In this document: positions 2-27,992 of the stretch, piece after piece
How positions within the stretch are numbered: position 1 is the first letter of the stretch
Layout of the letters: every line of letters starts with the position of its first letter
IMG/VR virus record: IMGVR_UViG_3300024999_000131
Location: 1-55,287 of that record
DNA: 55,287 nucleotides
Origin: a virus
Lineage: Duplodnaviria > Caudoviricetes
Strand: one strand, 5' to 3'
Program-made: the position numbers and the translations under genes
Notes under the pieces: model-generated
Databases searched by the model: none
What the model saw: the letters and a program-made list of their open reading frames with translations, nothing else
Told to the model about the DNA's origin: nothing

Positions 2-727
2 AAAACTCAACCTCCAAAAGCAAAAGGAATTATAGTACATCAAGGTAGTAGTTCTTATTCTGATGGATATGTAGAAAAACCAGAGATTAAGGATAATGAA
101 ACAACTGTAAAACAAGGAGAGATTATTTTAAACAATGATCAACCTGTATTTTATATTGGATTTTCAGAAGTTGAGAAATACGAATATAAACTCAATGTAG
201 TAAAACACTATAATTTAAAAATAATTATTGCAAGAAATAAAATTGAGGAAGAAATTCTTAAAAACATGAAAGATTCTGATAATGTATTACATATTTCAGA
301 ACTAATTGAAGATGTAATAGTAACTGGAATATTGTCAGATACATCATTGAATATTAGAGAACATAGAGCGTTGATGTTATTTGACATGATTAGTAGGATG
401 GTAGGACTATCTTATAATGCTTTTGTAATAGGTAATTTAGCTGTTACAAAGAATATAAAGGTAGAAAGTTTAGATATTAATACTCAAATCATTGAAGATA
501 GTATTGTAATTATTAGAGATATTGATGCAAATAAAGTTTATGTAGATAGGAAAATTATTGACCAAACTAATCTAAGGGAAGATTTAGAAGTCAATTTGGA
601 TATCAGTGATTATAAATTTATTTTGGGAAATCTTTATAATATTGTTGAAGAACTTAGACTCTTAGAGCATAAAAATAAAGATGACTATATGAATACAATA
701 TTAAGTATTTTAGGAAGTTCAATATAA
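2..727 (+). CDS. Hypothetical protein, 5'-truncated by window edge
   Basis: Frame of ORF 266..727 stays open back to position 2 (KTQPPKAKGIIVH...). Confidence 0.7.
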   Translation, partial: KTQPPKAKGIIVHQGSSSYSDGYVEKPEIKDNETTVKQGEIILNNDQPVFYIGFSEVEKYEYKLNVVKHYNLKIIIARNKIEEEILKNMKDSDNVLHISELIEDVIVTGILSDTSLNIREHRALMLFDMISRMVGLSYNAFVIGNLAVTKNIKVESLDINTQIIEDSIVIIRDIDANKVYVDRKIIDQTNLREDLEVNLDISDYKFILGNLYNIVEELRLLEHKNKDDYMNTILSILGSSI

Positions 728-764
728 ACAAATTTAGATTTTGTTGTATTAAAGGAGAAGAAAA

Positions 765-926
765 ATGAATAAGAACATATTAGCAAAAAGCATAAGTGAA
801 ATAGCAACCAATATCAACACCATTATGGAACACATTAAAGAAGGAGACAGTGCTGAAGAATTAGAACTAAAAATATTAAACGAAACGATTAAACTTTATA
901 ATATTGCAGATATGATTTCTAATTAA
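765..926 (+). CDS. Small hypothetical protein (53 aa)
   Basis: AAAGGAG RBS then MNKNILAKSISEIATN...; below the ORF-track cutoff. Confidence 0.65.
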   Translation: MNKNILAKSISEIATNINTIMEHIKEGDSAEELELKILNETIKLYNIADMISN

Positions 927-944
927 GAAAGAAGGAAAACAAAA

Positions 945-1388
945 ATGTTAATCAATCAAATTAAATCAGACTCTCTCGAAGCACGTAAGGCACGACAAAC
1001 CAACACGGCCACATTATTAACAACCCTATATTCTGAAGCATCCATGATAGGAAAGAATGCCGGAAACAGAGAATCTACTGATGTAGAAGTATTACAAGTC
1101 ATTGAGAAGTTTGTTAAGAATGCAAATGAAGTTAAGGATATTCTTTTAAAAAATAATAAAGATGTAAGTCATGTAGATAATGAGATTAAAGTTTTGAGTA
1201 AATATTTGCCTCAGAAAATGAGCTATGAAGAACTTGGTCATACAATTAGAGGAATAATTAAAGGATTGAGAAAAGATAAGTCTCCAAAATTAATGGGAGA
1301 AGTTATGGGGATGCTTAAGATATTACACGGTGGGATGTATGATGGTAAAATGGCAAGTGAAATTGTTAAGAAGGGATTGAGTAATTAA
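945..1388 (+). CDS. GatB/YqeY domain protein
   Basis: MLINQIKSDSLEARKAR...EIKVLSKYLPQKMS...MGEVMGMLK...DGKMASEIVK is the typical YqeY pattern. Confidence 0.85.
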   Translation: MLINQIKSDSLEARKARQTNTATLLTTLYSEASMIGKNAGNRESTDVEVLQVIEKFVKNANEVKDILLKNNKDVSHVDNEIKVLSKYLPQKMSYEELGHTIRGIIKGLRKDKSPKLMGEVMGMLKILHGGMYDGKMASEIVKKGLSN

Positions 1389-1390
1389 TA

Positions 1391-1624
1391 ATGAATAAAG
1401 CAGAACTTTGGGATGAATTAAAATCCTATTTGGTAAAAGCAGTTCCTCAATTATATGATATGGCGTTTAAAGCAGGATATCATATAAGCGTAGAAAGACT
1501 TACTAATAAAGCAAGAGGTATGGATTTAGCTCTAATAAAGATGAATGAACTTGAAAGAGATTTATTAGACAAACAAGAAATTTGTATTGGATGCTCAAAT
1601 TGTGATAATCATTGGTATCACTAA
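1391..1624 (+). CDS. Hypothetical protein
   Basis: ORF closely following yqeY. Confidence 0.6.
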   Translation: MNKAELWDELKSYLVKAVPQLYDMAFKAGYHISVERLTNKARGMDLALIKMNELERDLLDKQEICIGCSNCDNHWYH

Positions 1625-1795
1625 CTTAAACTTAATATATCAGATGTAGTAGACACAAATGGGAAAGTAAGAGACAGAATAACTGTTCGAGAAAAGAAAA
1701 CTTCTAAACCAAAAACATTTCCTTTTAGTGCAAAAGTAATAGAATCTTTAACAGAATATATTGCTTCTCTAGATCCATCTCAGCATTGCAATTAG
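1625..1795 (+). pseudogene. Internal fragment of a tyrosine recombinase/integrase
   Basis: Translates as LKLNISDVVDTNGKVRDRITVREKKTSKPKTFPFSAKVIESLTEYI, matching the segment right after the catalytic GLRxSD motif, including the EKKT lysine hairpin of small Firmicute integrases; no start codon or RBS. Confidence 0.7.
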
Positions 1796-1958
1796 CAAAT
1801 AAATTGTGGTCAATATGTGATATTGCTGAGAATGGAAATTGTGATTATAGAATTGAAGAAAGATATAATCACTGTATTGAATGTATAATTATGAGAGCAG
1901 GAAAAGAACTAAGTAGATAAAAATATGCTTTAAGCTAATTGAAATGGAGGTTAAATTT

Positions 1959-2195
1959 ATGATATTAGTCGGAATTGATATTGGTTTATGTATTGGTTTT
2001 GGATTCGCATTTTGGAAATTATATTCATATAGAAAGATGTTGGTCTCAAAATCTGTTAAAGGAAATAGAACATCTGAAAAAATTGGTGATGAATTTTATT
2101 ATATTGTACCTGCTGATGAATATATAGAAATGGAACAATTAGCATTGTTTAGGAAGATGGATGAATTTAAAGCAAAGGAGAGATTAAATGATTAA
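1959..2195 (+). CDS. Hypothetical membrane protein
   Basis: GGAGG RBS before ATG 1959; N-terminal hydrophobic segment. Confidence 0.65.
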   Translation: MILVGIDIGLCIGFGFAFWKLYSYRKMLVSKSVKGNRTSEKIGDEFYYIVPADEYIEMEQLALFRKMDEFKAKERLND

Positions 2196-2511
2196 CTTAT
2201 ACCTTGATGATTTACGTCCTTGCCCTGAACGCTTTATTTTGGCAAAAAATGCTCTAGAGTGTCGTTTATTGCTATTAAGTAACGATGTAAATATTCTATC
2301 ACTTGACCATGACTTAAGTGAAACTGAGACAGGTTATGACTTATGTAAATGGCTCGTTGAAGCAGGACAATATAATCCAAATATTTATCCTAAAGTAATC
2401 TATCTTCATACAGCAAATGGAGTAGGTAGAGATAATATGTTTAAACTGTTAGAGAGATATAAACCTGATTGGGTTAAGTTACATCGTGGGCCTATTCCAA
2501 ATAATGATTAA
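2188..2511 (+). CDS. Cyclic-phosphate processing receiver-like domain protein
   Basis: LYLDDLRP...LSLDHDL...TGYDLCKWL...LHTAN motif pattern. Confidence 0.75.
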   Translation: MINLYLDDLRPCPERFILAKNALECRLLLLSNDVNILSLDHDLSETETGYDLCKWLVEAGQYNPNIYPKVIYLHTANGVGRDNMFKLLERYKPDWVKLHRGPIPNND

Positions 2512-2522
2512 CAAAATTAAAA

Positions 2523-2551
2523 GGAGAAGACGTAGGGTTTCCGTCTTCTCC
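2523..2551 (+). other. GC-rich hairpin
   Basis: GGAGAAGACG-tagggtttc-CGTCTTCTCC, perfect 10-bp stem with no U-tract. Confidence 0.7.
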
Positions 2552-2667
2552 ACAAACGTGAAAACTTGTATTAAATATAGTATAACCACTGTAAACTATT
2601 TTATACATTAGAAAACTAATTTAATAATCATAGAAAACGACAATTTGAAAGGATGAGGTGAAATACA

Positions 2668-2874
2668 TTGTTTGCTATTTTAAATTGGTTTGATGATCCG
2701 AGATTAAGCGAAGTAGAAAAAGTTGAAAAAGGAGACAGGGTAAAGTCTGTTGTAAATGATTTTAATTTAACCGAAGACAAAGAATATGAAGTTATCGAAG
2801 TGAATAGCCCAACGATGATTACAATTATGAATGATGCTAATAAATTTGATATAATATACTGTAGAATATTTTAA
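2668..2874 (+). CDS. Hypothetical protein
   Basis: GAGGTG RBS, TTG start. Confidence 0.55.
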   Translation: MFAILNWFDDPRLSEVEKVEKGDRVKSVVNDFNLTEDKEYEVIEVNSPTMITIMNDANKFDIIYCRIF

Positions 2875-2924
2875 ATTATAGTTCGAAATACAGAATTTAT
2901 GTTATTAGAAAGGGATGGTAAATT

Positions 2925-3101
2925 ATGAAAATAAAATGGCAGTTATTTAAACTAAGTATACAAAGCAAGTTATTTAAATCATTATCAATACTTATTAAAC
3001 TATTTGGATGGGCTATAGTTGGATTGATATATGCGATAATTTTCGGAGGGATATTAGCCTTGTTTGCTATACCAATTGTATTGTTATTTAAATTAATTTA
3101 A
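2925..3101 (+). CDS. Small membrane protein (58 aa)
   Basis: AAAGGGATGG RBS; MKIKWQLFKL...GWAIVGLIYAIIFGGILALFAIPIVLLF. Confidence 0.6.
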   Translation: MKIKWQLFKLSIQSKLFKSLSILIKLFGWAIVGLIYAIIFGGILALFAIPIVLLFKLI

Positions 3102-3583: not shown

Positions 3584-3590
3584 AGGAGGA

Positions 3591-4250: not shown

Positions 4251-4844
4251 ATGAGCGTAGTTGTAGCAATTAAAGATGGAGATAAAATTTGGTTAGGTTG
4301 TGATAGTCAAGTTACATACGGTTATACAAAGTCTACACTTAAATCACAAAGAAAAATATGGAGAGTAGGAGATGAAGATAATTTAGTTATGGGGTTAGTA
4401 GGTGTTTGTAGAGACATGGACATATTATCTACATCAGAGGATTGGATTGAAGAATTGCCCAAATTAAAGAATGAAGTAAATTTTAAATATGTAGTTAGAA
4501 AAGTTGTTCCAAAGATTTTTAGTGAGTTAAATAAATTTGGCAGAATGGAAATAAAGAATAATCAATGGTATATAGATTCTAGTGTAACATTTGCTTATAA
4601 AGATAGTGCTTATCAAATTGGTCATAATGGAGAAGTTATGGAAATTGATGATATTTTAATTAGTGGTTCTGGGCGTAATTTGGGTATAGGAGCATGGAAT
4701 GGATTGAAAGATAATAAAGAAATGAGTATTAAGGATAAGTTAATACAAGTGGTTAGGTCTGCTTGTGAAAGTGATTTATATGTTAATTATCCAATTATTA
4801 TTATGAATACAATAGATAAAGAAGAAATTATAATTGAGAAGTAA
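4251..4844 (+). CDS. Ntn-hydrolase, proteasome beta-subunit/HslV-like protein
   Basis: N-terminal (M)SVVVAIK...LGCDSQVT, K of RKIW, and a late SGSG motif fit the proteasome-fold pattern. Confidence 0.65.
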   Translation: MSVVVAIKDGDKIWLGCDSQVTYGYTKSTLKSQRKIWRVGDEDNLVMGLVGVCRDMDILSTSEDWIEELPKLKNEVNFKYVVRKVVPKIFSELNKFGRMEIKNNQWYIDSSVTFAYKDSAYQIGHNGEVMEIDDILISGSGRNLGIGAWNGLKDNKEMSIKDKLIQVVRSACESDLYVNYPIIIMNTIDKEEIIIEK

Positions 4845-5038: not shown

Positions 5039-5374
5039 ATGGATGATGAGTTAATAGAATATTTTATTGTAAACTCTGAATTAAACATGAGTCCTGGCAA
5101 GATAACAGCACAAGTAGCTCATGTTGCTACAATTATTGCAGTAGAATTTACTGAATTTGATGATGATTTTAATGCTTGGTACACAAAAGATCAAAAGAAA
5201 ATAATATTAAGAGGCAAACAAAAAGATTTAGAAAAATTAGTAGATCAAAGATTTTATTATATTAGAGACAATGGACTAACTGAAATTCCGCAGGGAAGTC
5301 TTACAGTAGTAGGTCTTCCACCTATGTTAAAAAGTGATGCAAGAAAATATGTTAAGAGATTACAGTTACTATGA
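5039..5374 (+). CDS. Peptidyl-tRNA hydrolase, Pth2 family
   Basis: LNMSPGKITAQVAH...QKKIILR...IRDNGLTEIPQGSLTVVGLPP...VKRLQLL. Confidence 0.85.
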   Translation: MDDELIEYFIVNSELNMSPGKITAQVAHVATIIAVEFTEFDDDFNAWYTKDQKKIILRGKQKDLEKLVDQRFYYIRDNGLTEIPQGSLTVVGLPPMLKSDARKYVKRLQLL

Positions 5375-5407
5375 AAAATGTATTTGAAAGGAAGGTAGGA
5401 AATTAAT

Positions 5408-5668: not shown

Positions 5669-5712
5669 GTTAATCACAGCAAATCAGAATTTTAATTGAA
5701 AGGAGGTATATT

Positions 5713-6574: not shown

Positions 6575-6617
6575 GTACTTGGAATTTGTGAATTCATTCT
6601 AAATGAAAGGAGAAAAT

Positions 6618-8984: not shown

Positions 8985-9111
8985 AAAAATAATATGGAAG
9001 TATGAAATTACACCTTCCAAATGCTCTCTCATGCTTCCATATACTCCATATTCCTAACGCAAAATTGCCTACAATTAAAATAACTATTTCCTCGGATAAA
9101 GAAAGGATGAA

Positions 9112-9700: not shown

Positions 9701-9946
9701 ATGGAAATAAATATTAATACAAACTTTGATGAATCGGACAGGGCGTTTATGCTTACTATTGATAATACATATACACCAGTTGAAATAATTCAGATACATT
9801 CTGTTGAGCATGATGTGAATGCTTATTGTGTTAGTATTTTTAAAGTAATCTACGAAGTAAAAACTCTAAACCCGTTCAGACGATATACGGTCTATGAAGA
9901 TAAACTTTATTCACTAGAAGATATGGAAAAATTATTGTTCAATTAA
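9701..9946 (+). CDS. Hypothetical protein
   Basis: AAGGAGG RBS. Confidence 0.65.
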   Translation: MEININTNFDESDRAFMLTIDNTYTPVEIIQIHSVEHDVNAYCVSIFKVIYEVKTLNPFRRYTVYEDKLYSLEDMEKLLFN

Positions 9947-9975
9947 AATTATGGATTTATGGGGTGGGAGGTAAG

Positions 9976-10593: not shown

Positions 10594-10646
10594 TGCTTTA
10601 AAAAGAACATTTTAACCCAAATAAAATTTAAGAAAGAGGATAAGTA

Positions 10647-11192
10647 ATGGAAAATATTTTTAGATGTTCAATTTGTAAAAAAGAATTTAGTGGTTATGAC
10701 GCTGAAAAAGACTGTTTAAACGATGAAATTGAATGTAGAAACCTAAAACCAGAATTCCATAATACTGTTCAAGAGGCAATTAATATACTCACAAAAGATT
10801 ATGGTGTTGAATTTTTAGAAGAAAAACATAATGTAATGGCTGACTCTGATAATCATGGTATGGATTACAGTACTTATATGTATTTTAATGGTGAAGCAAA
10901 ATATAAAGATAATATATTTAAGTTTTATATCAGTAATGGTCAAATGAATGAAGGTTATGCTTTAGAATCTTCTAGTGGAATAGTGAATAGTTTTGTTTAT
11001 AAATATCTAAGAGAAAAAGAAATTGAATCAAATGAGATAATTGGGATTGTAGAAAGATATGAAAGTAATAGTATAAATGAAGAGGATGGTTATCACTATT
11101 ATAGAAGTGGTCATACAGTCGGGAATCAAGATATAAACGAATTAATGTATGATTTGGAAGGTAAGAAAATAAAAATTGAAGTATTAGAATAG
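10647..11192 (+). CDS. Hypothetical protein
   Basis: AGAGGA RBS; N-terminal CxxC. Confidence 0.7.
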   Translation: MENIFRCSICKKEFSGYDAEKDCLNDEIECRNLKPEFHNTVQEAINILTKDYGVEFLEEKHNVMADSDNHGMDYSTYMYFNGEAKYKDNIFKFYISNGQMNEGYALESSSGIVNSFVYKYLREKEIESNEIIGIVERYESNSINEEDGYHYYRSGHTVGNQDINELMYDLEGKKIKIEVLE

Positions 11193-11416
11193 ATTAAAAT
11201 AAAATTGCATGTTTATGTGATTGAAAGGTGGTGAGATAAAATGAACAGAGAACTATTTTATAAATCCGAGGGAGTTAGAGATTGTGTTAAATGGCTTGAA
11301 AAGGAAATTAAAGCAGGTAAATATCTAACTTCTGTTAATATAAAGATTGGTTTGGAGAAATATATGAGAAAATTAAAACATCAAGCAGAAGAAGAATAAA
11401 GGAGGAAAATTAAAAG

Positions 11417-12885: not shown

Positions 12886-12902
12886 TAATGTAAATTTAGA
12901 AA

Positions 12903-12932
12903 GTGGCCTCTAGCAAGGGTTTTAGAGGCCAC
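12903..12932 (+). other. Hairpin containing the GAAAGTGGC..TAGCAA.G.TTT motif
   Basis: GTGGCCTCTA-gcaagggttt-TAGAGGCCAC. Confidence 0.7.
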
Positions 12933-12976
12933 ACAAACCGATAAAAGATACATTTGTTTGGATTAGGAGGTGAAAA

Positions 12977-13502: not shown

Positions 13503-13605
13503 AATTTATCTTCCGAATGCTCACGAATGCTCTTGTTTACTACGTTTCTTAAACACAAAATCCACATAAAATGAATATTTATTGTATTTGGAAAGGAGAA
13601 TTAAT

Positions 13606-13827
13606 TTGAAAGAATTAAATGGTTTTGTTGATGTATTTCATATCTTAGGTAATCTTCAATCCACAGAATTTATTGATAATAATGGTGATATGGGAGTTAC
13701 AGATCCGACTTTAGCTAAAAGATTTGATTCATATAGAGAAGCATCAGATTATTACCAAACCAATAAAGATAATTATTATGACAATTTATATCCACAAGGA
13801 GTTAGGATTACTGTTGAACTGGTTTGA
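13606..13827 (+). CDS. Hypothetical protein, paralog of 14128..14367
   Basis: AAAGGAG RBS, TTG start; AKRFDSYREA..YY...VRITVELV. Confidence 0.65.
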   Translation: MKELNGFVDVFHILGNLQSTEFIDNNGDMGVTDPTLAKRFDSYREASDYYQTNKDNYYDNLYPQGVRITVELV

Positions 13828-14032
13828 AATCTGACTTTCAAAGAATTAAGAAAGGATAAGAAAAATGGGATTTGATTTATATTCGGCAAAAGAAATAATT
13901 ATTAAACCAAATAAAGATAATGTTACATTTAATGTGCATGTAAAATTTGATGGAGAAATAGAGTTTATTTATCCAAGAGTATATATTAATAAGTTTGATG
14001 TAGATATTCTTACTGAAAACTAAAAATATACT

Positions 14033-14487: not shown

Positions 14488-14551
14488 TTGTTAACACATG
14501 AAAGCTAATTTTCATCGTACTAAAATAATAAATGAAAGATAGGAGGAACAT

Positions 14552-16432: not shown

Positions 16433-16477
16433 TGTGTTTTCTGAAAGTGGCTTGTAGCAATGCTTTCAGAAAACACA
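16433..16477. other. Long hairpin with a loop motif shared with 12900
   Basis: TGTGTTTTCTGAAAG-tggcttgtagcaatg-CTTTCAGAAAACACA. Confidence 0.7.
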
Positions 16478-16530
16478 ATATAACATCAAACGAATCGTTT
16501 ATTGGATTATAAAAGGAGTAAAATAATTAA

Positions 16531-16785
16531 ATGAAAATAGATGAAATGATTAAACTTCTTGATAAAGAAGAAAAATCTCTTCTTGAAGAAATCAGTGAAA
16601 GAGAAACAAGACTTAATGAAATTCAAATAACTAAAAGTGAATTATTAAGATTTAAACAGCAATTAAAGTTAAAATGCGACAAATGTAATGGTACTGGTAA
16701 GGTATTTAGAAGGTCTTGTGCAGAAGATGATGGAGATTATTATAATTGTGAAAAATGTAATGGAAAAGGAATATTAATACCATAA
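16531..16785 (+). CDS. Small protein with DnaJ-type CxxCxGxG Zn motifs
   Basis: CDKCNGTG...CEKCNGKG. Confidence 0.7.
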   Translation: MKIDEMIKLLDKEEKSLLEEISERETRLNEIQITKSELLRFKQQLKLKCDKCNGTGKVFRRSCAEDDGDYYNCEKCNGKGILIP

Positions 16786-16827
16786 ACTTAACCTTTCAAC
16801 CCAAATAATAATTAGGAGGATAAGATA

Positions 16828-17187
16828 ATGAAACAAAAATACACGTTAGTAAAGAGAGAACCAGTTAAGGAAAAGACTTTTAGGGTAATAATTGTAGCAG
16901 ATTCAAATGATGCTGATTATATTACAGAAGATGCAATATATACAGAACAGGAATTTAATGATTCTGTCAATATTTTAATAGACTTAATTAAAAATCATAG
17001 TGGCAGACATGAATTTGAAAATTTTCGAAATGAAACTGAAGAAGGTTATATAGAGATACCTTACTGCGAATGGGGAAGTTGCCACTCCTTAGAAAGTATT
17101 GAAATTACTTGTGAAGATGTTGACGGAATTATTTACAACGTTGAATTAATAGATGATGAAGGAAAATTGATTCCCTCGAAAAACTGA
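16828..17187 (+). CDS. Hypothetical protein
   Basis: AGGAGGA RBS. Confidence 0.7.
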   Translation: MKQKYTLVKREPVKEKTFRVIIVADSNDADYITEDAIYTEQEFNDSVNILIDLIKNHSGRHEFENFRNETEEGYIEIPYCEWGSCHSLESIEITCEDVDGIIYNVELIDDEGKLIPSKN

Positions 17188-17212
17188 ATTTAAGCTATGG
17201 AAAGGAGAAAAT

Positions 17213-17542
17213 ATGAAGATTATATTTTTCGGAAGCACAAAACAATCTGCATTTGACGAATTAGAACATCGTATCAAAACACAAATTAACAAAGGAGATA
17301 TAAAGATAATTCAAAAATCCATGTATGATTACATAGTATGTTTAAATAATGGAGATTCACTAAGAGCAATGAGAGGAACAGAAACTATTCGTGGATATAA
17401 ATGTGATAAAGCAATTGTAGACTCAAAAGTAGATGAGGATATCATTCAATATATTCGATATTCATGTTTATGTTGCTCTTCAGAGTTACCAGAAGAAGAC
17501 AGATTTATACGATATCCATTTGGGATTGGATATACCCTATAG
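17213..17542 (+). CDS. Hypothetical protein
   Basis: AAAGGAG RBS. Confidence 0.7.
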   Translation: MKIIFFGSTKQSAFDELEHRIKTQINKGDIKIIQKSMYDYIVCLNNGDSLRAMRGTETIRGYKCDKAIVDSKVDEDIIQYIRYSCLCCSSELPEEDRFIRYPFGIGYTL

Positions 17543-17587
17543 AAAAAGAATTTGATCCTATAATTTAAAGAAAGAAGGAATATAATA

Positions 17588-17887
17588 ATGCCACATTATA
17601 AAAAGAAACCAGTGATTATTGAGGCAGTTCAATGGGTGGGAGACAACGCAACAGAAATAATGTTGTTTGTTGGTAAAAAATTGAAAGTGTCTAGACCTCC
17701 TTATGGTATGGAACTAGATAAAGATATTCCAAAAGAAGCATACACGATTATTATTCCAACATTAGAAGGAGACATGAAAGCTTCTAAAGGAGATTTTATT
17801 ATCAAAGGTGTAAATGGAGAATTTTATCCTTGTAAACCTAATATTTTTGAAAAGACATATGAATTGGTTGAGAGTTATTTTAATTAG
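17588..17887 (+). CDS. Widespread phage protein (KKPVxIEA...TLEG...GDxIIxGVxGExYPCKPxIFxxTY family)
   Basis: Family motif recognised; paralog at 26398. Confidence 0.75.
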   Translation: MPHYKKKPVIIEAVQWVGDNATEIMLFVGKKLKVSRPPYGMELDKDIPKEAYTIIIPTLEGDMKASKGDFIIKGVNGEFYPCKPNIFEKTYELVESYFN

Positions 17888-18127
17888 TATAAAAATACAG
17901 TTTCAAGTGATAGAGAAAGGAAATAAATAAATGAAGTGTAATACATGTATCCATGAGTGGACATATTCTGCTGATTGGACTTCTCCTTATGGAGAATGGG
18001 CTTGTATGAAAACAGAAAATGATTTATATGGAACTAGGTCAGAAGACGTAGAAAATTGTGAACATTACATAGAAAAATAATAATCCTATAATACCACTGA
18101 TTTATTGTATTATGAAAGGAGAAAATA

Positions 18128-18319
18128 ATGTTTCCTCTTAAATTAGAAAGTGAAAGCTATTATGCTGGGATGGGAGAATATGAAACAAGAAGTGTTATAA
18201 GTTTTCAAAGTGGACAAAGAATTGCTCATGTAGATTATTTGAATTGGGAAAACATCTATAAGATTAATAATTATGTTAAGAGTTTGGAAGATGAGATATT
18301 AAGATTAAAGAACATTTAA
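18128..18319 (+). CDS. Hypothetical protein
   Basis: AAAGGAG RBS. Confidence 0.65.
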   Translation: MFPLKLESESYYAGMGEYETRSVISFQSGQRIAHVDYLNWENIYKINNYVKSLEDEILRLKNI

Positions 18320-18352
18320 AAATGCTATTTGAAAGGACGGGAGTATTATAAT

Positions 18353-18604: not shown

Positions 18605-18978
18605 GCACACGAAACACAATATTTAAGGGTTAGGAGGAAAATAAAATTGATTGTAAAAGCACTTATTGAAATTAACGGGGATAATTTGGAAGGAATTGAT
18701 TCAGAAGATGCTACTTATATTTTAGAAACAATTCTTCATGATGGATGTGAGGTATGTCAGTTAGACGGAAGCATTGAAGTATTAGAATTTATAAATCTAT
18801 AGATTGAATTCCAAATTTGCAAGTATTTTAGAAAGGAGATAAGTCAAATGTGTAAATATGGGACTTCTGAACATCATTGTGTTATCACAAAAGGAAAGTG
18901 TGATCAAAAGTCTGATGAAGAATGTATAGTATATATTTCTTACGAAGAAATGATTAGAGAATAGTTGGAAAATAAAGT

Positions 18979-19007
18979 TTGACTTCTTAGTATAAACATA
19001 ATATAAT
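18979..19007 (+). promoter_or_regulatory. SigA-type promoter
   Basis: TTGACT-17 nt-TATAAT, A-tract UP element. Confidence 0.7.
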
Positions 19008-19058
19008 AAATGTATACATAGGAGACATGAAAGATTTCTTTTATAGGAGGTGAGAATT

Positions 19059-19361
19059 ATGAAGAAAATAAGTTTCCTTATTGGGACATTAATTTTATCT
19101 GTAGCACTTACTGGTTGTGGGGCAGAAATTACCGAAAAACCAGTAAAATTCAAAATTATTGATGTATCTGCAAACAATTACGGAACTATTTTGATTTTGG
19201 TTGATGAAACAAATAATCGTGTTACAAAGCATACAGTTTATGATAACTACAAATTTAATACGGATTTTAAAATTAAAAGTAAAGAAGATTTGATTGGAAA
19301 ATATCTTTATAGTGATGTATATTCAAGCTTAAAACAAAATACAGTAATTAAATCAGAATAA
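19059..19361 (+). CDS. Putative lipoprotein
   Basis: MKKISFLIGTLILSVALTG-C lipobox. Confidence 0.75.
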   Translation: MKKISFLIGTLILSVALTGCGAEITEKPVKFKIIDVSANNYGTILILVDETNNRVTKHTVYDNYKFNTDFKIKSKEDLIGKYLYSDVYSSLKQNTVIKSE

Positions 19362-19406
19362 AAAGTCTAATTCGAAGGAATTTAAAATAAAAAGGAGAGA
19401 ATACAA

Positions 19407-20051
19407 ATGTTTTACGATGACGAAAGTAGAGAACCTTATTATAATCCAGAAGATTTTTTAGAGGAATACGAAGTAAACCTAAGGGAAATTATTGCCAAAG
19501 CAGTTAATGACAAGATTAAGAATACAATTGAAAAACTACAATTGACAGAAGACGAAAACAAGAGACTCAGTAAAGAAATCAGTGAATTAAAAAGAGGCAT
19601 ATTTAATACTGATAGATTACATAAGGAACAATTAGACAAAGCGTTGAAAGAAAAAGAATTAGAAATTCAGAGGAAATTAAATTGTGGTTTTGTCCCCCAT
19701 GATAAAGTTTGGTATATTGAATCAAAAGCAAAACAGACAAAATGCGAACAATGTAATGGGAATTATAATGTTGAAGTTGAAGTATTGGGTAAGAAGACAA
19801 AGGCTAGTTGTCCACATTGTTCTTATGGGAATATCACAACTTATACATATTCTGTAAAACAAGATATTGTATCTTCTATTTATTATAATTATCATAGAGA
19901 AGATAGAAATAAAAATCAGGGAATAATTCTAAATGTAGATAAAATATATTTGGATAAGTATGATGGTCAAAAAGATTTAAAGAATTTATATAAGACCCTA
20001 GAAGAGGCTCAGATAGAATGTGATATTAGGAATGCAAAGGCAATAGGATGA
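19407..20051 (+). CDS. Hypothetical protein with coiled coil and CxxCxG motifs
   Basis: AAAGGAG RBS. Confidence 0.75.
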   Translation: MFYDDESREPYYNPEDFLEEYEVNLREIIAKAVNDKIKNTIEKLQLTEDENKRLSKEISELKRGIFNTDRLHKEQLDKALKEKELEIQRKLNCGFVPHDKVWYIESKAKQTKCEQCNGNYNVEVEVLGKKTKASCPHCSYGNITTYTYSVKQDIVSSIYYNYHREDRNKNQGIILNVDKIYLDKYDGQKDLKNLYKTLEEAQIECDIRNAKAIG

Positions 20052-20089
20052 AAAATTAGATTTATCGTATTTAGAAAGGAGGAAGGTAT

Positions 20090-20329
20090 GTGTTAGAAAT
20101 AGTTAGTGTTAAATCTGATGATTGGAACGCAATTTATGTAAATGGAGAGAAGTTGGTTGAACATCACAGTATTAATTGGGAATGGTTTCTTCAAGTCTTA
20201 TCAGATAGGGGATTAATTACATATAAACTCAGAGAATATGAGCTTACTGAAAATGCTGTAGAAAAAGTTTTGAAATGTAGTTATCCTGAAAAAGTAAGTG
20301 AATTTCCTAAAAAGTTGCACATAGTATAA
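20090..20329 (+). CDS. Hypothetical protein
   Basis: AAAGGAGG RBS. Confidence 0.65.
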   Translation: MLEIVSVKSDDWNAIYVNGEKLVEHHSINWEWFLQVLSDRGLITYKLREYELTENAVEKVLKCSYPEKVSEFPKKLHIV

Positions 20330-20369
20330 AAGTTTCATTTGCTAGGATTATAAAGGAGGAAAATAAAAA

Positions 20370-22510: not shown

Positions 22511-22730
22511 GAAAGAGGAATAATGAATTGGCTGAAATGATATTAGCATATCTTAAAAAGGAAGCAGATAAAGAAGTTATAAGAAAAGCTAAAGCAAAAG
22601 AGCAAGATATAAGAGGATACATAATTGGGAGTGTTTATAAGGCACAAAAGAAGCGAAGAAAGTATATGGGGAGGTAGAAGAGAATATATGTAGAATACCA
22701 ACAAATGACTCATTTATTGGAGGTGAATTA

Positions 22731-22925
22731 ATGATTGAAGAATCAAACGTATATAAAGTATTTTATAGTTTTAAAAGAAATAATAAGTCAGAATGGGAAG
22801 ATACTTTTCAATATGTTCAGGTTAAGACAAAAGATGAAGCTATATTTTCTACTGAAAGGATGATAAGTAATCAAGGTCATCATAGCTGGTTTGTCGGAGC
22901 AGGACAATTAATCCCAAAAAATTAA
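22731..22925 (+). CDS. Hypothetical protein
   Basis: GGAGGTG RBS overlapping the repeat right arm. Confidence 0.65.
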   Translation: MIEESNVYKVFYSFKRNNKSEWEDTFQYVQVKTKDEAIFSTERMISNQGHHSWFVGAGQLIPKN

Positions 22926-22956
22926 GAATTCATTGGAAAGAGAGGAAGATATAAGA

Positions 22957-23229
22957 ATGGAAAATGTTATTGTTGGTCAATTAATTGAAGTTTCTCAGAA
23001 TAAAACATGGTGTTATGGAGTTGTTGTGGAAGTTTTTGATGATATGTACCATATTGAAAAAGAATATGGCGGTAGAGTGATGTCACACGATAGAGATAAA
23101 ATGGATCAGCAAGAAATTAATGATTCCCTAGTTTTAAATTTATATACTAGACCACTATATAAAGATGGCAAACCTGTAATGTCTAGGAAGAATTTGTTTG
23201 GTAAATATACGTTTAAACCAAAATATTAA
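22957..23229 (+). CDS. Hypothetical protein
   Basis: GAGG RBS before ATG 22957. Confidence 0.65.
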   Translation: MENVIVGQLIEVSQNKTWCYGVVVEVFDDMYHIEKEYGGRVMSHDRDKMDQQEINDSLVLNLYTRPLYKDGKPVMSRKNLFGKYTFKPKY

Positions 23230-23275
23230 CCTTGGAAATGTAGTTTTTAATGGATTGAAAGGAGGGGTGATATTT

Positions 23276-25044: not shown

Positions 25045-25086
25045 TATTATGAGTCAAAAAATTAAAAGAAGGGAGAATTAAACTAA

Positions 25087-25308
25087 ATGAACGATCCATA
25101 TTTAAAAGTTGGTAAAATATTCTATCCTGTTCATCCGATTTATAAAACTACATATGTTACAGTAGGAAAACCACATTGTTGTCCTGTTTGTCATGGAAGT
25201 GGAATAGTAGACAAAGGATTTTTTAATAGAACAGGTGATTCTTGGGTTAATAGTGGTGGTACAGAAAAATGTAAAGCTTGTGATGGTAAAATGATTGTTT
25301 GGGGCTAA
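25087..25308 (+). CDS. Small CxxCxGxG Zn-finger protein
   Basis: CPVCHGSG...CKACDGK. Confidence 0.65.
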   Translation: MNDPYLKVGKIFYPVHPIYKTTYVTVGKPHCCPVCHGSGIVDKGFFNRTGDSWVNSGGTEKCKACDGKMIVWG

Positions 25309-25352
25309 CATATTATCAAGGTAATGCAATGTGCCGAAAAGGAGAATTAACT

Positions 25353-25745
25353 ATGAAAATATCTAATTTCACAAATATCTTTAAATTTATGCAAACTAAA
25401 TTCCCAGTGGAAGAATGCATAGAGAAAGACAAGAAAGAAGAAGCAATATATAATTCAAAGAATAAATATTTATGTTTAGTTATTGATAAAAGATTTAAAG
25501 ATAATATAGAATTAAAAATTATGACTCCTTACATATGGGTAGGAAACGAATCAAGATATTCAGGACATGAAGATTTTAAAGACTTTATTGGTTATGGATG
25601 GATTAATGAAAATGGTTATTATATTGATAATTTTGAGAATCCCATACATGTTGTTGATGATGAAATTGTAATAGGATTTGTACCATATGAAGATAAAAAT
25701 AGCGACGATTTGAAATTATGGGATATTGTAAAGGAAGAAGATTAG
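25353..25745 (+). CDS. Hypothetical protein
   Basis: AAAGGAG RBS before ATG 25353. Confidence 0.65.
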   Translation: MKISNFTNIFKFMQTKFPVEECIEKDKKEEAIYNSKNKYLCLVIDKRFKDNIELKIMTPYIWVGNESRYSGHEDFKDFIGYGWINENGYYIDNFENPIHVVDDEIVIGFVPYEDKNSDDLKLWDIVKEED

Positions 25746-25783
25746 TAAATATTTTAGATGTGAATCGAGGTGATAATAATTAA

Positions 25784-26365
25784 TTGAATTATAATAGACC
25801 TAAAAATGAGACAGAAACACATTTTCTATTAAAAGAAATATCAAAATACATATTATTCGGTTGGGGATATAATAAATTAGGCACAGAAGTAGGTTCTATG
25901 TGGGATAATGACATATCAAAATTATTTAACAAACAAGGTAAGTCACAGAAAAATATTGTGGATTGTGTTGGTTTAAAGAAGGTATCATTAGGTAGAGGTA
26001 AGTTCTATTATGACATGAAAGCAATTGAAGCAAAAGCAAGTTTAAGTGATTATAAAAATGGTTTTTGTGGAGCTTGTGCAAGGACATATATTATAAGCAC
26101 AGTAAATACCATACCAATTGAACTTTTGCCAAAACACATAGGATACATAGAAATTGATCTTGATAAATTTGAACTAAAGAAGTATTCTCAGAAGATTTCT
26201 GATATGCAAGGTGTTAACTTAGTCCGACAAGCTAAAAAGAAAATTGATTCAAGATTTAAAGATGAAGAAAAGTATAAAAAATGGTGTGCTGAAAGTTTGG
26301 AAAGAGTTGCTTATAGAAGTAGTAGCGAATTGTTGTTTTGGAGGAATTTCATAGAGTTTAGTTGA
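25784..26365 (+). CDS. PD-(D/E)xK superfamily nuclease-like protein (MmcB-like)
   Basis: TEV...VDCVG...IEAKASLSDYKNG. Confidence 0.55.
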   Translation: MNYNRPKNETETHFLLKEISKYILFGWGYNKLGTEVGSMWDNDISKLFNKQGKSQKNIVDCVGLKKVSLGRGKFYYDMKAIEAKASLSDYKNGFCGACARTYIISTVNTIPIELLPKHIGYIEIDLDKFELKKYSQKISDMQGVNLVRQAKKKIDSRFKDEEKYKKWCAESLERVAYRSSSELLFWRNFIEFS

Positions 26366-26397
26366 TAGAAAATAATAAATTTAGGAGGAAATACGCA

Positions 26398-26673
26398 ATG
26401 TCTAAATATCGTAAGAAAGCAATAATAATTGAAGCAAAAGTTTATCAAAGTGGAATGGAAGATGGGTATGCTTGTTACGCAATAGGTGGTAAATTTATAG
26501 GATACTATGATAAAAATGGAGCATTACCAAAAACAAGTAGAATTCCAGCAATTAAAACGCTTGAAGGATTTCATGAGATTGACGAAGGCGACTATATCAT
26601 TACAGGTGTAAAAGGTGAAAGATATCCTTGCAAACCTGATATTTTTGAAATGACGTATAAATTAATAGAATAG
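26398..26673 (+). CDS. Widespread phage protein, paralog of 17588
   Basis: KYRKKAIIIEA...IKTLEG...GDYIITGVKGERYPCKPDIFEMTY. Confidence 0.75.
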   Translation: MSKYRKKAIIIEAKVYQSGMEDGYACYAIGGKFIGYYDKNGALPKTSRIPAIKTLEGFHEIDEGDYIITGVKGERYPCKPDIFEMTYKLIE

Positions 26674-26721
26674 ATTAAAAGTTTAGTTTAATGGGATAAA
26701 GAATAAATTGGAGGAAAGAGT

Positions 26722-27003
26722 ATGAAATTATTAACTAGAGAAAATTTAATTAAATGTTATAAAGGGGCTAAGTCATACGAAAAGAGATATGTTGGAGTAT
26801 TAATTGAAATGACAGGTTTTGAAAAACCAGAAGTAATTATTAATCAAAGTGAAAATTTTGATAAGAAATTAGCATATTATATTGATGCTTACGATGAAAA
26901 TCTTAATCACAAACACGCTCAAGGAATTAAGATCATTGGTTTTACACACGGTAATTACTTTGACGACATCGAAGAAGACTTACTCGTTGGTTTTTATAGA
27001 TAA
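26722..27003 (+). CDS. Hypothetical phage protein
   Basis: GGAGG RBS. Confidence 0.7.
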   Translation: MKLLTRENLIKCYKGAKSYEKRYVGVLIEMTGFEKPEVIINQSENFDKKLAYYIDAYDENLNHKHAQGIKIIGFTHGNYFDDIEEDLLVGFYR

Positions 27004-27224
27004 TCCATCAAACAGTTAATTTATGGTATTTAAAGGAGGTGAAACATGAGAAAAGTAAGATTCCTTAAAGATTTTAATTCTTTTAAGAAAGACACTTATA
27101 GAGTTATCATGGAAGAAACTGCATTCCATTATCGCATTCAAGTTAATTTACATAGTGATGAGTTGTATTGGATTCATAAGGTAGATAACGGTGATATTTA
27201 TCAAGTAGTAGAGAGGAATTAGAA

Positions 27225-27914
27225 ATGAAATTAAAGCATATAAAAATTGGTCAAAAAGTAGTCCCTCATTCAAAGAGCAAAGGAAGTCATTTTAATTCAA
27301 GTTGTTGGAGAAAAGTAAAAGAAAATAAAGATCCATATTTATATGTAATAAGAATTGATGGAAATACAATTGTTTTAGATGATGAAAGAGATGCTGAACT
27401 AGGTGATTATTTCTTACCAGAAGATTTAGAACCATACATAGAAGTAATAAAGCAAAATAATAATGAAAGTAGGAATACTAAAATGAAAAAATCACAATTG
27501 AATAGTTCAATGCTTTTCAAAATGAGAGATGGAGACTTATGTGCTTTGTTAGATGATATTGAAAATGAAAAAATGTTCTGCAATAAAGAAGATATTCAAT
27601 TAGGGTATAGTGATTATGGAATATCAATTAATGATTATGATGAAGATTTATCTCCAGAGGATGAAGCCTATGACATTGTAGCAATTAAACAATTAAATAC
27701 TTGTGTGAAAGTTATTGCTGATGTTTTAGATGAGAATGAGCCAGAAGAGTGGGATTGGGTAGAGGAGGTTGAGAAAGAAGATCCAAAAGTTGAAAATGTT
27801 GCCCAAAATATTACAATTAATATTACCATTGATTCAAAATATGATATTGATAATATTATGTGTCAAATAGAAAATAGTATCAGAAATTTAAATTTTAATC
27901 GTTTTGCTATATGA
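27225..27914 (+). CDS. Hypothetical protein (possible two-domain fusion)
   Basis: GAGAGGA RBS; internal RBS+ATG at 27483. Confidence 0.7.
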   Translation: MKLKHIKIGQKVVPHSKSKGSHFNSSCWRKVKENKDPYLYVIRIDGNTIVLDDERDAELGDYFLPEDLEPYIEVIKQNNNESRNTKMKKSQLNSSMLFKMRDGDLCALLDDIENEKMFCNKEDIQLGYSDYGISINDYDEDLSPEDEAYDIVAIKQLNTCVKVIADVLDENEPEEWDWVEEVEKEDPKVENVAQNITINITIDSKYDIDNIMCQIENSIRNLNFNRFAI

Positions 27915-27992
27915 TGATTTTCAAAACATAACTTCTATTGAATGTGGAATTTTAAGTGGCTTATGTTTTGTTAGAAGTAATAAATAAAATGT

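What the first reader, a model, noticed from the sequence alone, without database searches (positions are those of the whole stretch)
723..27959. Integron-like gene-cassette array: ~40 tyrosine-recombinase-like 10-6-10 palindromes delimiting small phage genes
SEEN: most junctions between the short accessory ORFs carry a degenerate 26-bp dyad, consensus TMSNWYRAAA-N6-WTTNAWNSKA. Examples: TACTATGAAA-AATGTA-TTTGAAAGGA (5367), TCCACATAAA-ATGAAT-ATTTATTGTA (13561), ACACATGAAA-GCTAAT-TTTCATCGTA (14494), TAACATCAAA-CGAATC-GTTTATTGGA (16481), TAGTATAAAA-ATACAG-TTTCAAGTGA (17885), TAGTATAAAA-GTTTCA-TTTGCTAGGA (20322), TACCAACAAA-TGACTC-ATTTATTGGA (22696), TAGATTAAAA-GTTTAG-TTTAATGGGA (26671). The upstream stop codon often lies inside the left arm, and the next RBS usually follows within ~0-25 nt. 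From 16.5 to 20.3 kb almost every gene is bracketed by two sites. The 6-bp spacer differs in the copies I read. I saw no copy in the replication core (28.8-41 kb) or inside long conserved genes. KNOWN: inverted arms around a 6-bp overlap is the architecture of tyrosine-recombinase core sites (dif/pdif, loxP-type), and integron and pdif arrays are made of promoterless site-bounded cassettes. INFERENCE: this is a phage system that captures, shuffles or excises one-gene cassettes (possibly anti-defence or host-takeover genes), read from a few interspersed SigA promoters. Non-matching spacers would imply non-canonical chemistry. Alternatives are a repressor/NAP operator array or an mRNA processing/translation signal.
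Basis: partly seen in the sequence, partly recalled or inferred. Interest (0 to 1): 0.93.

Follow-up and report, generated by a model that had tools for sequence, protein, structure and literature searches.

The report
Addressed junction boxes between phage genes
A real 26-base two-armed DNA motif sits at about four in ten gene junctions of this phage's accessory region, and related phages swap unrelated genes at these motifs while keeping each motif's six-base centre and the order of the centres, so it looks like a set of fixed exchange points and not an integron.

Summary
The motif is real. An unbiased EM on 71 intergenic regions recovers the same bipartite 26-bp element (log-likelihood 178.8 against 82.6 +/- 4.1 in 25 shuffles). 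A matrix trained on the window is enriched in independent related contigs. It is a palindromic consensus, not a hairpin: 214 distinct sites show no arm covariation.

The main new result is comparative. The 6-bp centres differ inside a genome, but between related phages they are identical and colinear; the arms are not. Of 548 centre-identical site pairs, 331 have unrelated flanks on both sides. Where one flank is near-identical, the adjacent arm goes with it (9.0-9.2 of 10) and the far arm does not (6.8-7.1). Crossovers map inside the box.

Nothing else fits an integron. There is no adjacent integrase, no attC-like folding and no shuffled order. Other breakpoints lie at Shine-Dalgarno sequences.

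Best reading: protein-bound junction boxes that act as in-register linkers for cassette replacement between co-infecting relatives. The nearest knowns are T4 PeSLs and the 26-bp operator boxes of SPbeta-family integrase-fold repressors. The binding protein and the enzymology are not established.

The parts
   Evidence: matrix score 8.6; centre shared with 1 relative; a 94%-identity block with G008 ends at 729
2628..2653 (.). junction box
   Evidence: score 16.8, 14 nt before the start codon
2879..2904 (.). junction box
   Evidence: score 14.9
5367..5392 (.). junction box; stop codon at box positions 6-8
5674..5699 (.). junction box, centre TCAGAA
   Evidence: score 12.3; same centre in G001 and G008; the upstream gene is shared, and an extra gene follows in the window
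6576..6601 (.). junction box, centre TTGTGA
   Evidence: score 11.5; centre shared with 8 relatives
9071..9096 (.). junction box
   Evidence: score 17.7
9939..9964 (.). junction box, centre TTATGG
   Evidence: score 16.2; centre shared with 7 relatives, flanking genes unrelated
10594..10619 (.). junction box, centre AGAACA
   Evidence: score 13.1; centre shared with 11 relatives, flanking genes unrelated
11195..11220 (.). junction box
   Evidence: score 12.4; centre shared with 9 relatives
12937..12962 (.). junction box, behind a G+C-rich hairpin
   Evidence: score 16.3; centre shared with 5 relatives
13561..13586 (.). junction box
   Evidence: score 12.2
13820..13845 (.). junction box
   Evidence: score 13.9; centre shared with 3 relatives
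14494..14519 (.). junction box
   Evidence: score 19.0
16481..16506 (.). junction box, centre CGAATC, behind a 45-nt inverted repeat
   Evidence: score 18.2; centre shared with 5 relatives
16778..16803 (.). junction box
   Evidence: score 13.7; centre shared with 4 relatives
17172..17197 (.). junction box, centre AACTGA
   Evidence: exact pattern match; score 20.8; centre shared with 6 relatives
17535..17560 (.). junction box
   Evidence: score 14.9; centre shared with 6 relatives
17885..17910 (.). junction box
   Evidence: score 15.7
18084..18109 (.). junction box
   Evidence: score 17.1; centre shared with 3 relatives
18312..18337 (.). junction box
   Evidence: score 14.8; centre shared with 3 relatives
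18605..18630 (.). junction box
   Evidence: score 12.9; centre shared with 2 relatives; the left arm differs although the upstream gene is shared with G006
18800..18825 (.). junction box
   Evidence: score 12.8; centre shared with 2 relatives
19023..19048 (.). junction box 16 nt behind a strong sigma-A-like promoter (18979-19007)
   Evidence: score 13.1; promoter 11 of 12
19354..19379 (.). junction box
   Evidence: score 11.6; the orthologous box in G004 differs by 1 base in the centre
20044..20069 (.). junction box
   Evidence: exact pattern match; score 18.7; blastn block with L015 ends at 20057
20322..20347 (.). junction box
   Evidence: score 18.7
22696..22721 (.). junction box
   Evidence: score 15.8
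22912..22937 (.). junction box
   Evidence: score 19.1; centre shared with 2 relatives
23229..23254 (.). junction box at the end of ORF 22957-23229
   Evidence: score 19.9; centre shared with 2 relatives
26671..26696 (.). junction box, centre GTTTAG
   Evidence: exact pattern match; score 14.9; centre shared with 3 relatives; crossovers mapped at this slot in relatives
27003..27028 (.). junction box
   Evidence: score 15.9
   Evidence: score 18.4; same box in G002 with only the downstream flank shared
   Evidence: exact pattern match; score 18.3
   Evidence: score 19.1

Best explanation
The 26-bp elements are junction boxes. Each has two generic, mutually inverted 10-bp arms (roughly T-M-C-n-W-T-R-A-A-A and its complement) around a 6-bp centre, and sits a few bases upstream of the ribosome-binding site of a small accessory gene.

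SHOWN. The motif is real and conserved in a clade of uncultivated groundwater phages related to Clostridium phage c-st and Bacillus phage SPbeta. It is a palindromic consensus without arm covariation, which is the signature of a double-stranded site read by a two-fold symmetric protein assembly, not of an RNA or DNA hairpin. The centre is specific to each slot. It is identical and colinear between genomes, whereas the genes and arms on either side are replaced. Each arm is inherited with its neighbouring cassette, so the crossover lies in or next to the centre.

INFERRED. The boxes work as linkers. In co-infection, recombination between the same box of two relatives swaps cassettes in register, using the 10-16 identical bases formed by the centre and the invariant AAA and TTT. 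This most likely happens by short-homology recombination, because similar breakpoints occur at Shine-Dalgarno sequences and because out-of-register events break in the left arm.

Also inferred: the arms are kept because a protein binds them. The leading candidate by analogy is the integrase-fold repressor of the SPbeta family (MrpR/YopR/SroF). It is encoded just upstream of the array in all three near-complete relatives examined (CheckV 92-100%), and in phi3T it binds a 26-bp box. Under that reading the boxes would silence or block read-through into the accessory genes, as stoperators do.
For: Reality of the motif. Independent enrichment of a window-trained matrix at score >=11, + strand hits against shuffles: L006 14 vs 1.1, L007 9 vs 1.3, L012 7 vs 1.0, L013 7 vs 1.2, L015 8 vs 0.8.

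DNA-level palindrome: left and right column frequencies mirror each other. There is no covariation in 34 or in 214 sites.

Slot-specific centres: 20 of 30 window junction boxes (score >=11, below 28 kb) have an identical centre in at least 1 of 31 other sequences. Centres shared per genome pair number 6-15, with a longest common subsequence equal or nearly equal to that count and above all 200 permutations, for all 10 pairs among W, G1, G2, G6 and G8. The five pairs with G4 share only 2 centres at the score >=9 cut-off and are not above the permutations. Arm hexamers never exceed the permutations.

Replacement of flanks: blastp of the flanking genes at shared centres mostly finds nothing even at E<10. 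Of 548 centre-identical pairs, 331 (298 distinct) have both 70-nt flanks unrelated, and their arm identity is 5.6 and 6.0 of 10. Meanwhile a core protein is 93-96% identical in 8 relatives.

Arms go with flanks: in 10 distinct up-only pairs the left arm is 9.0 and the right 6.8 of 10; in 10 distinct down-only pairs the right is 9.2 and the left 7.1.

Nucleotide-level recombinant: L073 equals L063 on the left and G002 on the right, at 100% identity over the 24 nt displayed on each side. The switch is confined to about 10 bases that include the centre.

Block ends: 14 of 53 distinct ends of >=93%-identity blocks lie within -8..34 of a box, against 2.5% of the sequence.

Candidate binder: MrpR/YopR homologues lie upstream of the array, on the same strand, in G004, G006 and G008. 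MrpR binds the SPBRE at 10 peaks (PMC10516654, passages and section 29 read). phi3T SroF binds a 26-bp box (bioRxiv 10.1101/2025.11.27.690993, abstract and section 5 read).
Against: No binding protein is shown.

The integrase-fold homologues of G006 and G008/G004 are only 27-29% identical although the box motif is the same. G011 has a 34% homologue but shows no motif in the 22 kb examined. c-st has a YopR homologue but only 1 hit of score >=11 in 50 kb. The phi3T box scores -20 on the matrix. SroF and MrpR are reported as monomers on an asymmetric site, whereas this consensus is two-fold symmetric.

Only 1 of the 5 strong sigma-A-like promoters in 9-28 kb has a box right behind it, unlike the SPBRE, which lies in promoter regions.

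The short-homology reading rests on about 10 Shine-Dalgarno-adjacent breakpoints that I classed by eye and on two out-of-register cases. An identical stretch of 10-16 bp is short for known general recombination. A 6-bp identical overlap between symmetric arms is exactly what a tyrosine recombinase needs.

In some pairs the arm next to a shared gene is dissimilar, which neither simple model predicts.

Orthologous junctions chosen without reference to the centre have identical centres in only 16 of 35 pairs. The centres therefore drift, and their conservation may be passive.
Confidence: 0.5

Rival explanations
1. Dedicated site-specific recombination. A tyrosine-recombinase-type enzyme, from the phage or the host (Xer-like), binds the two arms and exchanges strands across the 6-bp centre. 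Because the overlap must match, only the same slot of two genomes recombines, giving programmed in-register cassette exchange.
For: The 10-6-10 symmetric layout. Centres are unique within a genome (35 of 35) and identical and colinear between genomes. Arms segregate with their flanks, and every one of the 20 one-sided pairs is compatible with a switch inside positions 11-16. The best-resolved recombinant confines the crossover to about 10 bases. G006 and G008 encode a 66%-identical small recombinase with the Arg, His-x-x-Arg and Tyr motifs present.
Against: That small recombinase is absent from G004, which is 92% complete and carries the motif. No PF00589 protein lies in the window or next to any array. 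The integrase-fold proteins beside the array have no conserved tyrosine at the aligned MrpR Y304 region. Selecting pairs by identical centre makes 'switch inside the centre' partly circular. Breakpoints also lie at Shine-Dalgarno sequences, inside the left arm at out-of-register joints, and at a ribosome-binding site on one side of an inserted gene that has a box on the other side only.
Confidence: 0.2
2. Pure operator array. The boxes are only binding sites of a repressor or nucleoid-type protein that blocks transcription through the accessory genes in the lysogen. The breakpoints at boxes are what selection leaves after random illegitimate recombination.
For: A palindromic consensus without covariation. 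A fixed place just upstream of the ribosome-binding site. An integrase-fold repressor family with 26-bp boxes in this phage lineage. Stoperators in mycobacteriophages as a precedent for many repressor sites spread over a genome (PMC9283540, abstract in the search listing).
Against: Random breakage plus selection predicts breakpoints anywhere in the 25-130-nt gaps. It does not predict 298 distinct pairs in which only the 6-bp centre and the invariant AAA and TTT survive between two unrelated cassettes, nor arms that switch partner exactly at the centre.
Confidence: 0.15
3. RNA-level signal: an mRNA processing site, a translational operator or a small hairpin between cistrons.
For: All boxes lie on the transcribed strand between a stop codon and a ribosome-binding site, at a regular distance.
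Against: No arm covariation in 214 sites, with or without G-U pairs. The consensus is reverse-complement symmetric column by column, which a single-stranded recognition site has no reason to be. Generic inverted repeats are not enriched. No Rfam family covers a box.
Confidence: 0.05
4. Artefact of metagenome assembly: chimeric contigs joined at short shared sequences would mimic recombinants.
For: Many relatives come from a few related samples. Logan contigs of the source study are fragmented across the array and show alternative joints.
Against: The identical stretch at the mapped crossover is about 10 bases. That is shorter than the word length usual in de Bruijn assemblers (my own knowledge, not tested here). 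The motif itself, its colinear centres and the 298 both-flanks-unrelated pairs do not depend on any single join.
Confidence: 0.05

Closest known systems
PeSLs (promoter-early stem-loops) of T4-type phages (Arbiol et al. 2010, PMC2839356; Comeau et al. 2014, PMC4122927; abstracts read)
   Same: Short conserved intergenic elements lie between small non-essential genes of hyperplastic regions. They serve as points of exchange between otherwise unrelated sequences, so that indels and replacements between relatives end in them.
   Different: PeSLs are composite sigma-70 promoters plus terminator stem-loops. These boxes are neither: there is no promoter excess and no pairing signal. PeSL exchange is described between nearby PeSLs within a genome and yields mini-circles. 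Here each box has its own 6-bp centre, the order of centres is conserved, and the exchange seen is between genomes, in register.
SPBRE and SroF boxes of SPbeta-family phages with the integrase-fold repressor MrpR/YopR/SroF (PMC10516654; bioRxiv 10.1101/2025.11.27.690993)
   Same: The same broad phage lineage: c-st carries YopQ, YopR, YorF, YorI and YorJ homologues. A tyrosine-recombinase-fold DNA binder is encoded beside the early region. The element is repeated in intergenic DNA. The phi3T box is 26 bp long.
   Different: The SPBRE is a 15-bp motif at 10 promoter-region peaks. Here there are 30-45 boxes per array, mostly not at promoters. The phi3T box is asymmetric, is read by a monomer over 24 of 26 bp including its centre, and does not fit this matrix (score -20). 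Here the consensus is two-fold symmetric and the centre is free. Binding is untested. I did not see the SPBRE logo: figures are not held and supplements are closed.
Xer/dif and pdif modules, loxP-type tyrosine recombinase core sites (recalled, no paper read)
   Same: Inverted arms around a 6-bp overlap. Discrete gene modules bounded by such sites. The need for overlap identity would explain slot specificity.
   Different: No recombinase is linked to the boxes. The arms are far more degenerate. No alternation of XerC-type and XerD-type arms can be told. The breakpoints are not uniform.
Integron attC arrays
   Same: Rows of mostly promoterless one-gene cassettes in one orientation, bounded by repeated imperfectly symmetric sites.
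   Different: No intI, attI or Pc. The sites are 26 bp and not structured. The cassette order is fixed, not shuffled.
Stoperators of cluster A mycobacteriophages (PMC9283540, abstract in the search listing)
   Same: Numerous repressor-type sites distributed over the genome in short intergenic spaces.
   Different: Stoperators are asymmetric and read by a monomer. No role as exchange points, and no site-specific centres, is known to me.

Membership tests
Integron (attC cassette array) | Integron integrase with attI and Pc adjacent to the array | tested here: not met
   No PF00589 match over the cut-off in the window. In near-complete relatives the recombinases lie tens of kb from the array.
Integron (attC cassette array) | attC sites recognised as folded single strands, with paired R''/L'' and L'/R' boxes | tested here: not met
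   The sites are 26 bp. Own-arm pairing equals cross-site pairing in 214 sites (5.76 vs 5.75 +/- 0.08).
Integron (attC cassette array) | Cassettes found in variable order and position | tested here: not met
   Box centres are colinear in all 10 genome pairs among W, G1, G2, G6 and G8; the longest common subsequence is about the number shared. The five pairs with G4 share only 2 centres.
Tyrosine-recombinase core site (dif, pdif, lox type) | Two inverted binding arms around a 6-8 bp overlap | tested here: met
   The arms co-occur at a spacer of exactly 6. The columns mirror each other.
Tyrosine-recombinase core site (dif, pdif, lox type) | A cognate active recombinase, and exchange within the overlap | tested here: inconclusive
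   Crossovers are compatible with the centre in 20 of 20 one-sided pairs, but those pairs were chosen by identical centre. No recombinase is common to all motif-bearing genomes. A host enzyme could not be tested, because the host is unknown (one search found no genome relative).
SPBRE / SroF operator boxes of SPbeta-like phages | Phage encodes an MrpR/YopR/SroF-family integrase-fold repressor | tested here: met
   Homologues in G004, G006 and G008 next to the array match PDB 8A0A at E 1e-7, 4e-11 and 1.4e-5. The window itself ends about 6.4 kb short of where G008 has the gene.
SPBRE / SroF operator boxes of SPbeta-like phages | Box sequence related to the known boxes | tested here: not met
   The phi3T 26-bp box scores -20 and -21 on the matrix. 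The SPBRE sequence was not visible to me.
SPBRE / SroF operator boxes of SPbeta-like phages | Boxes lie in promoter regions and are bound by the repressor | not testable with these tools
   Only 1 of 5 strong promoter-like sites has a box behind it. Binding needs experiments.
PeSL | Composite early promoter plus terminator stem-loop | tested here: not met
   Promoter-like sites 130 vs 128 expected; terminator-like 1 vs 3.3. No hairpin signal.
PeSL | Exchange point between otherwise unrelated sequences in hyperplastic regions | tested here: met
Stoperator array | Many repressor sites in short intergenic regions, asymmetric and in one orientation | tested here: inconclusive
   Many intergenic sites: yes. 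Asymmetry: no. Binding and transcription block are untested.

The most novel reading that the evidence does not exclude
The boxes are an addressed crossover system. A tyrosine-recombinase-type protein (host Xer-like, a phage recombinase, or an integrase-fold protein with residual activity) pairs the same slot of two co-infecting genomes. It exchanges strands across the 6-bp centre, which acts as a slot address. About 30-45 accessory-gene cassettes can then be reassorted independently while gene order is kept. That would be an enzymatic form of the linker sequences postulated in the modular theory of phage evolution.
Probability: 0.2. Interest if true: 0.92.

Novelty: new variant of a known kind. 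Interest (0 to 1): 0.74.

Why it matters
Phage genomes are mosaics. It is still debated whether the module boundaries come from special linker sequences or from random breakage followed by selection. Here, in a clade of large uncultivated phages, one can read directly from sequence that dozens of unrelated accessory genes occupy fixed slots. The slots are separated by a protein-site-like box whose 6-bp centre is the only thing kept, and crossovers map into that box. This makes the linker idea testable with a defined 26-bp substrate. It points to a possible link between integrase-fold repressors and genome plasticity. It also gives a practical rule for finding cassette boundaries, and so candidate anti-defence or host-takeover genes, in this lineage.

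Tried and rejected
Hairpin or RNA structure: rejected.

Sigma-A promoter or intrinsic terminator: rejected as a general reading.

Artefact of stop codon plus ribosome-binding site: rejected. The de novo motif has its strongest columns at the AAA and TTT next to an uninformative centre, the spacing is fixed at 6, and the matrix works in other genomes.

Same motif in c-st or in the phi3T SroF box: not found.

Megablast of 5 kb of the window against the phage collection: no match. Only protein-level relatives were found, c-st at 53%.

Genome collection: no relative of the conserved protein, so the host is not identified.

Candidate binders inside the window: Pfam and PHROGs on 42 distinct ORFs gave no DNA-binding family or recombinase. 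They gave NAD ligase, YqeY, a proteasome-like protein, PTH2, a UDG-like protein, PcfJ, cREC_REC and an HD-like protein.

Co-occurrence of the motif with one phage recombinase or one repressor allele: not found.

RNA evidence: no RNA holder listed.

Laying Logan contigs of 4 DNA runs of one groundwater study: many short contigs and joints with sides of only 21-39 letters. Some coincide with cassette limits (for example 25076 to 25352 in all four runs; 26379 to 26678 in X1 and X4), but they are too short-sided to count as evidence.

First breakpoint survey at >=90% identity: most block ends were not near boxes. The refined survey gave 14 of 53 near boxes.

Rows dropped: 116 of the 548 pairs had intermediate flank scores and were left out of the four classes. 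Near-duplicate genomes G007, G009 and L040 were removed. In one search some 'orthologous' pairs are paralogues (37-47% identity), and one site (G002 13015) is probably the start of a gene.

Supplements were not requested. The SPBRE logo and Table 3 of PMC10516654 were not seen and may bear on the comparison.

Full report
WHAT THE WINDOW IS. The window is a whole IMG/VR virus record of 55,287 bp, estimated 32% complete. It has 26-31% G+C and nearly all its genes are on the + strand. The right half carries replication genes: a DnaE-type polymerase, a RecD-like helicase, a PD-(D/E)XK nuclease, an AAA_24 protein and NrdD. The left 28 kb is a row of about 75 mostly small genes, among them an NAD-dependent ligase, YqeY, a proteasome-like protein, PTH2, a UDG-like protein, PcfJ and cREC_REC. 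The nearest named phage, by protein only, is Clostridium phage c-st (53% identity), whose record lists homologues of SPbeta genes. DNA runs that hold the window are groundwater metagenomes of one study.

IS THE MOTIF REAL? Yes.
- That consensus was fitted by eye, so I tested it in ways that do not depend on it. When the two arms are scanned separately at every spacing from 0 to 20, only spacing 6 stands out: 30 + strand hits against 7-19 at the others.
- A ZOOPS EM of my own on 71 intergenic regions, with an intergenic background, returns the same bipartite motif with an information-free middle. Its log-likelihood is 178.8, against 82.6 +/- 4.1 (maximum 95) in 25 dinucleotide shuffles.
- A matrix built from 34 window sites is enriched in related contigs that played no part in building it: 14, 9, 7, 7 and 8 hits against about 1 expected. 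It is not enriched in three more distant ones.

In the window I count 35 sites of score >=11. Of these, 30 lie at junctions below 28 kb by my gene model. The box at 23229 is also at a junction but was scored as coding.

WHAT KIND OF ELEMENT? The arms of one site are no more complementary to each other than to the arms of other sites. This holds with 34 window sites (5.56 vs 5.51 of 10, p=0.43) and with 214 distinct sites from all genomes (5.76 vs 5.75 +/- 0.08). Exact short inverted repeats are not enriched in the gaps. Yet the column frequencies of the left arm mirror those of the right arm, mixed positions included. So the symmetry is in the consensus, not in each copy. That is what a double-stranded site for a two-fold symmetric protein assembly looks like, and not what a hairpin looks like.

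The box sits at the 5' end of the downstream gene. An AGGAGG-like sequence starts 5-8 nt behind it in 43 of the 89 sites where one was found. The upstream stop codon often uses box positions 6-8 (26 of 145) or 1-3 (9 of 145). The boxes are not sigma-A promoters or terminators: promoter-like sites number 130 against 128 expected, there are five strong + strand promoters in 19 kb, and there is one terminator-like site.

THE COMPARATIVE RESULT. I fetched arrays from related IMG/VR contigs. They include three with CheckV completeness of 92-100%: G004 at 154 kb, G006 at 227 kb and G008 at 178 kb.
- The 6-bp centres are all different within the window (35 of 35). They recur in relatives in the same order: 20 of 30 window junction boxes have an identical centre in at least one of 31 other sequences.
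- For all 10 genome pairs among W, G1, G2, G6 and G8, 6-15 centres are shared. The longest common subsequence equals or nearly equals that number and exceeds all 200 permutations. The five pairs with G4 share only 2 centres at the score >=9 cut-off and are not above the permutations. The variable hexamers of the arms show no such colinearity.
- The genes on both sides of a shared centre are usually unrelated. blastp finds nothing even at E<10 in most comparisons. Of 548 centre-identical site pairs in 32 sequences, 331 (298 distinct) have both 70-nt flanks at background similarity, with arm identity at baseline (5.6 and 6.0 of 10). Another 116 pairs with intermediate flanks were set aside. A core protein is 93-96% identical among 8 of these phages, so the cassettes and arms have been replaced, not worn away.
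- Where one flank is near-identical and the other unrelated, the adjacent arm goes with the flank: 9.0 vs 6.8 of 10 in 10 distinct up-only pairs, and 9.2 vs 7.1 in 10 distinct down-only pairs.
- Printed base by base, the switch is sharp. One contig (L073) is 100% identical to L063 over the 24 nt shown to the left plus the left arm and centre. It is 100% identical to G002 over the centre, the right arm and the 24 nt shown to the right. The parents share only about 10 bases there.
- Ends of >=93%-identity blocks fall within -8..34 of a box in 14 of 53 cases, against 2.5% of the sequence.

WHAT SPEAKS AGAINST A CLEAN SITE-SPECIFIC SYSTEM.
- Choosing pairs by identical centre makes 'the switch includes the centre' partly circular. 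Orthologous junctions picked through a shared flanking gene have identical centres in 16 of 35 pairs, several others differing by one base.
- About ten other block ends abut Shine-Dalgarno sequences. I classed these by eye.
- One extra gene in the window has a box on its left, but only a ribosome-binding site at its right breakpoint.
- Where the same upstream gene is joined to a different slot, the switch lies in or at the edge of the left arm.
- In a few pairs the arm next to a shared gene is dissimilar.
- No tyrosine recombinase is in the window or beside any array. The small, motif-complete recombinase shared by G006 and G008 (66% identical) is missing from G004.

THE LINEAGE CLUE. c-st CST030 is a homologue of SPbeta YopR/MrpR (PDB 8A0A, E 6.6e-11). 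Homologues of 336-348 residues lie just upstream of the array, on the same strand and behind a gene of about 460 residues, in G004, G006 and G008. The window would reach that gene about 6.4 kb beyond its left end.

MrpR has the fold of a tyrosine recombinase but only three of the seven catalytic residues. It binds the SPbeta repeated element at ten peaks (PMC10516654; passages and section 29 read). The phi3T orthologue SroF binds a 26-bp box as a monomer (bioRxiv 10.1101/2025.11.27.690993; abstract and section 5 read). This gives a natural reason why a repeated phage site should look like a recombinase core site without being one.

The link is only an analogy here, for these reasons:
- The homologues of G006 and G008 are 27-29% identical although their boxes are alike.
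- G011 has a 34% homologue without the motif in the region held.
- c-st lacks the motif, and the phi3T box does not fit the matrix.
- The four homologues share no tyrosine in the aligned MrpR Y304 region. This argues against catalysis by them.

VERDICT. The integron reading is not supported.

I commit to junction boxes that are protein-bound linkers, used mainly by short-homology recombination (confidence 0.5). A dedicated centre-matching recombination system is the main rival (0.2). It is the most novel reading that the evidence does not exclude.

The closest known things are T4 PeSLs (abstracts read) and SPbeta-family repressor boxes. I know of no description of slot-specific centres kept colinear across mosaic relatives. 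My searches for one were limited.

Noticed in passing
window 48818-48879 (+): Match to Rfam RAGATH-18 RNA (49.4 bits, gathering score 44.9), in the gap behind the 410-residue ORF 47531-48763.
   Followed up: no
window 12901-12932, 16433-16477, 54309-54334; also G002 near 11190: G+C-rich stem-loops with a similar loop. The 12-base loop word is exact at 12911 and 54315. They stand just upstream of boxes in the larger gaps and have no T-run behind them on the + strand. The 12901 hairpin is a 31-nt insertion relative to G006. Possibly a second repeated intergenic element.
   Followed up: partly
window 17788-17866 and 26585-26663: An 80%-identical stretch at the 3' ends of two small genes (ORFs 17588-17887 and 26398-26673), which are paralogues inside the array.
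   Followed up: no
window 25076-25352: Contigs of all four DNA runs join 25076 to 25352 with 5 other letters between. This is a population variant that lacks the 73-residue gene 25087-25308. There is no box at either end.
   Followed up: no
L025 1396-2490 (G004:114786-115880, - strand); similar ORFs in G005 and G010: A 364-residue Xer-like protein, below the Pfam cut-off (24.1 bits). It has Lys in place of the second catalytic Arg (H-L-F-K), and a tyrosine lies in the C-terminal segment aligned to the XerC-like chain. It may be another degenerate recombinase-fold protein in this clade.
   Followed up: partly
window 41480-41540: A long inverted repeat (two copies of a 12-base word on opposite strands, at 41486 and 41527) in the 119-nt gap before ORF 41551.
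   Followed up: no
window 2188-2511 and 4251-4844: Accessory genes with a cyclic-phosphate-processing receiver domain (cREC_REC, E 1.8e-27) and a proteasome-subunit-like fold (E 1e-6). These are candidate counter-defence or host-takeover cargo of the slots.
   Followed up: no
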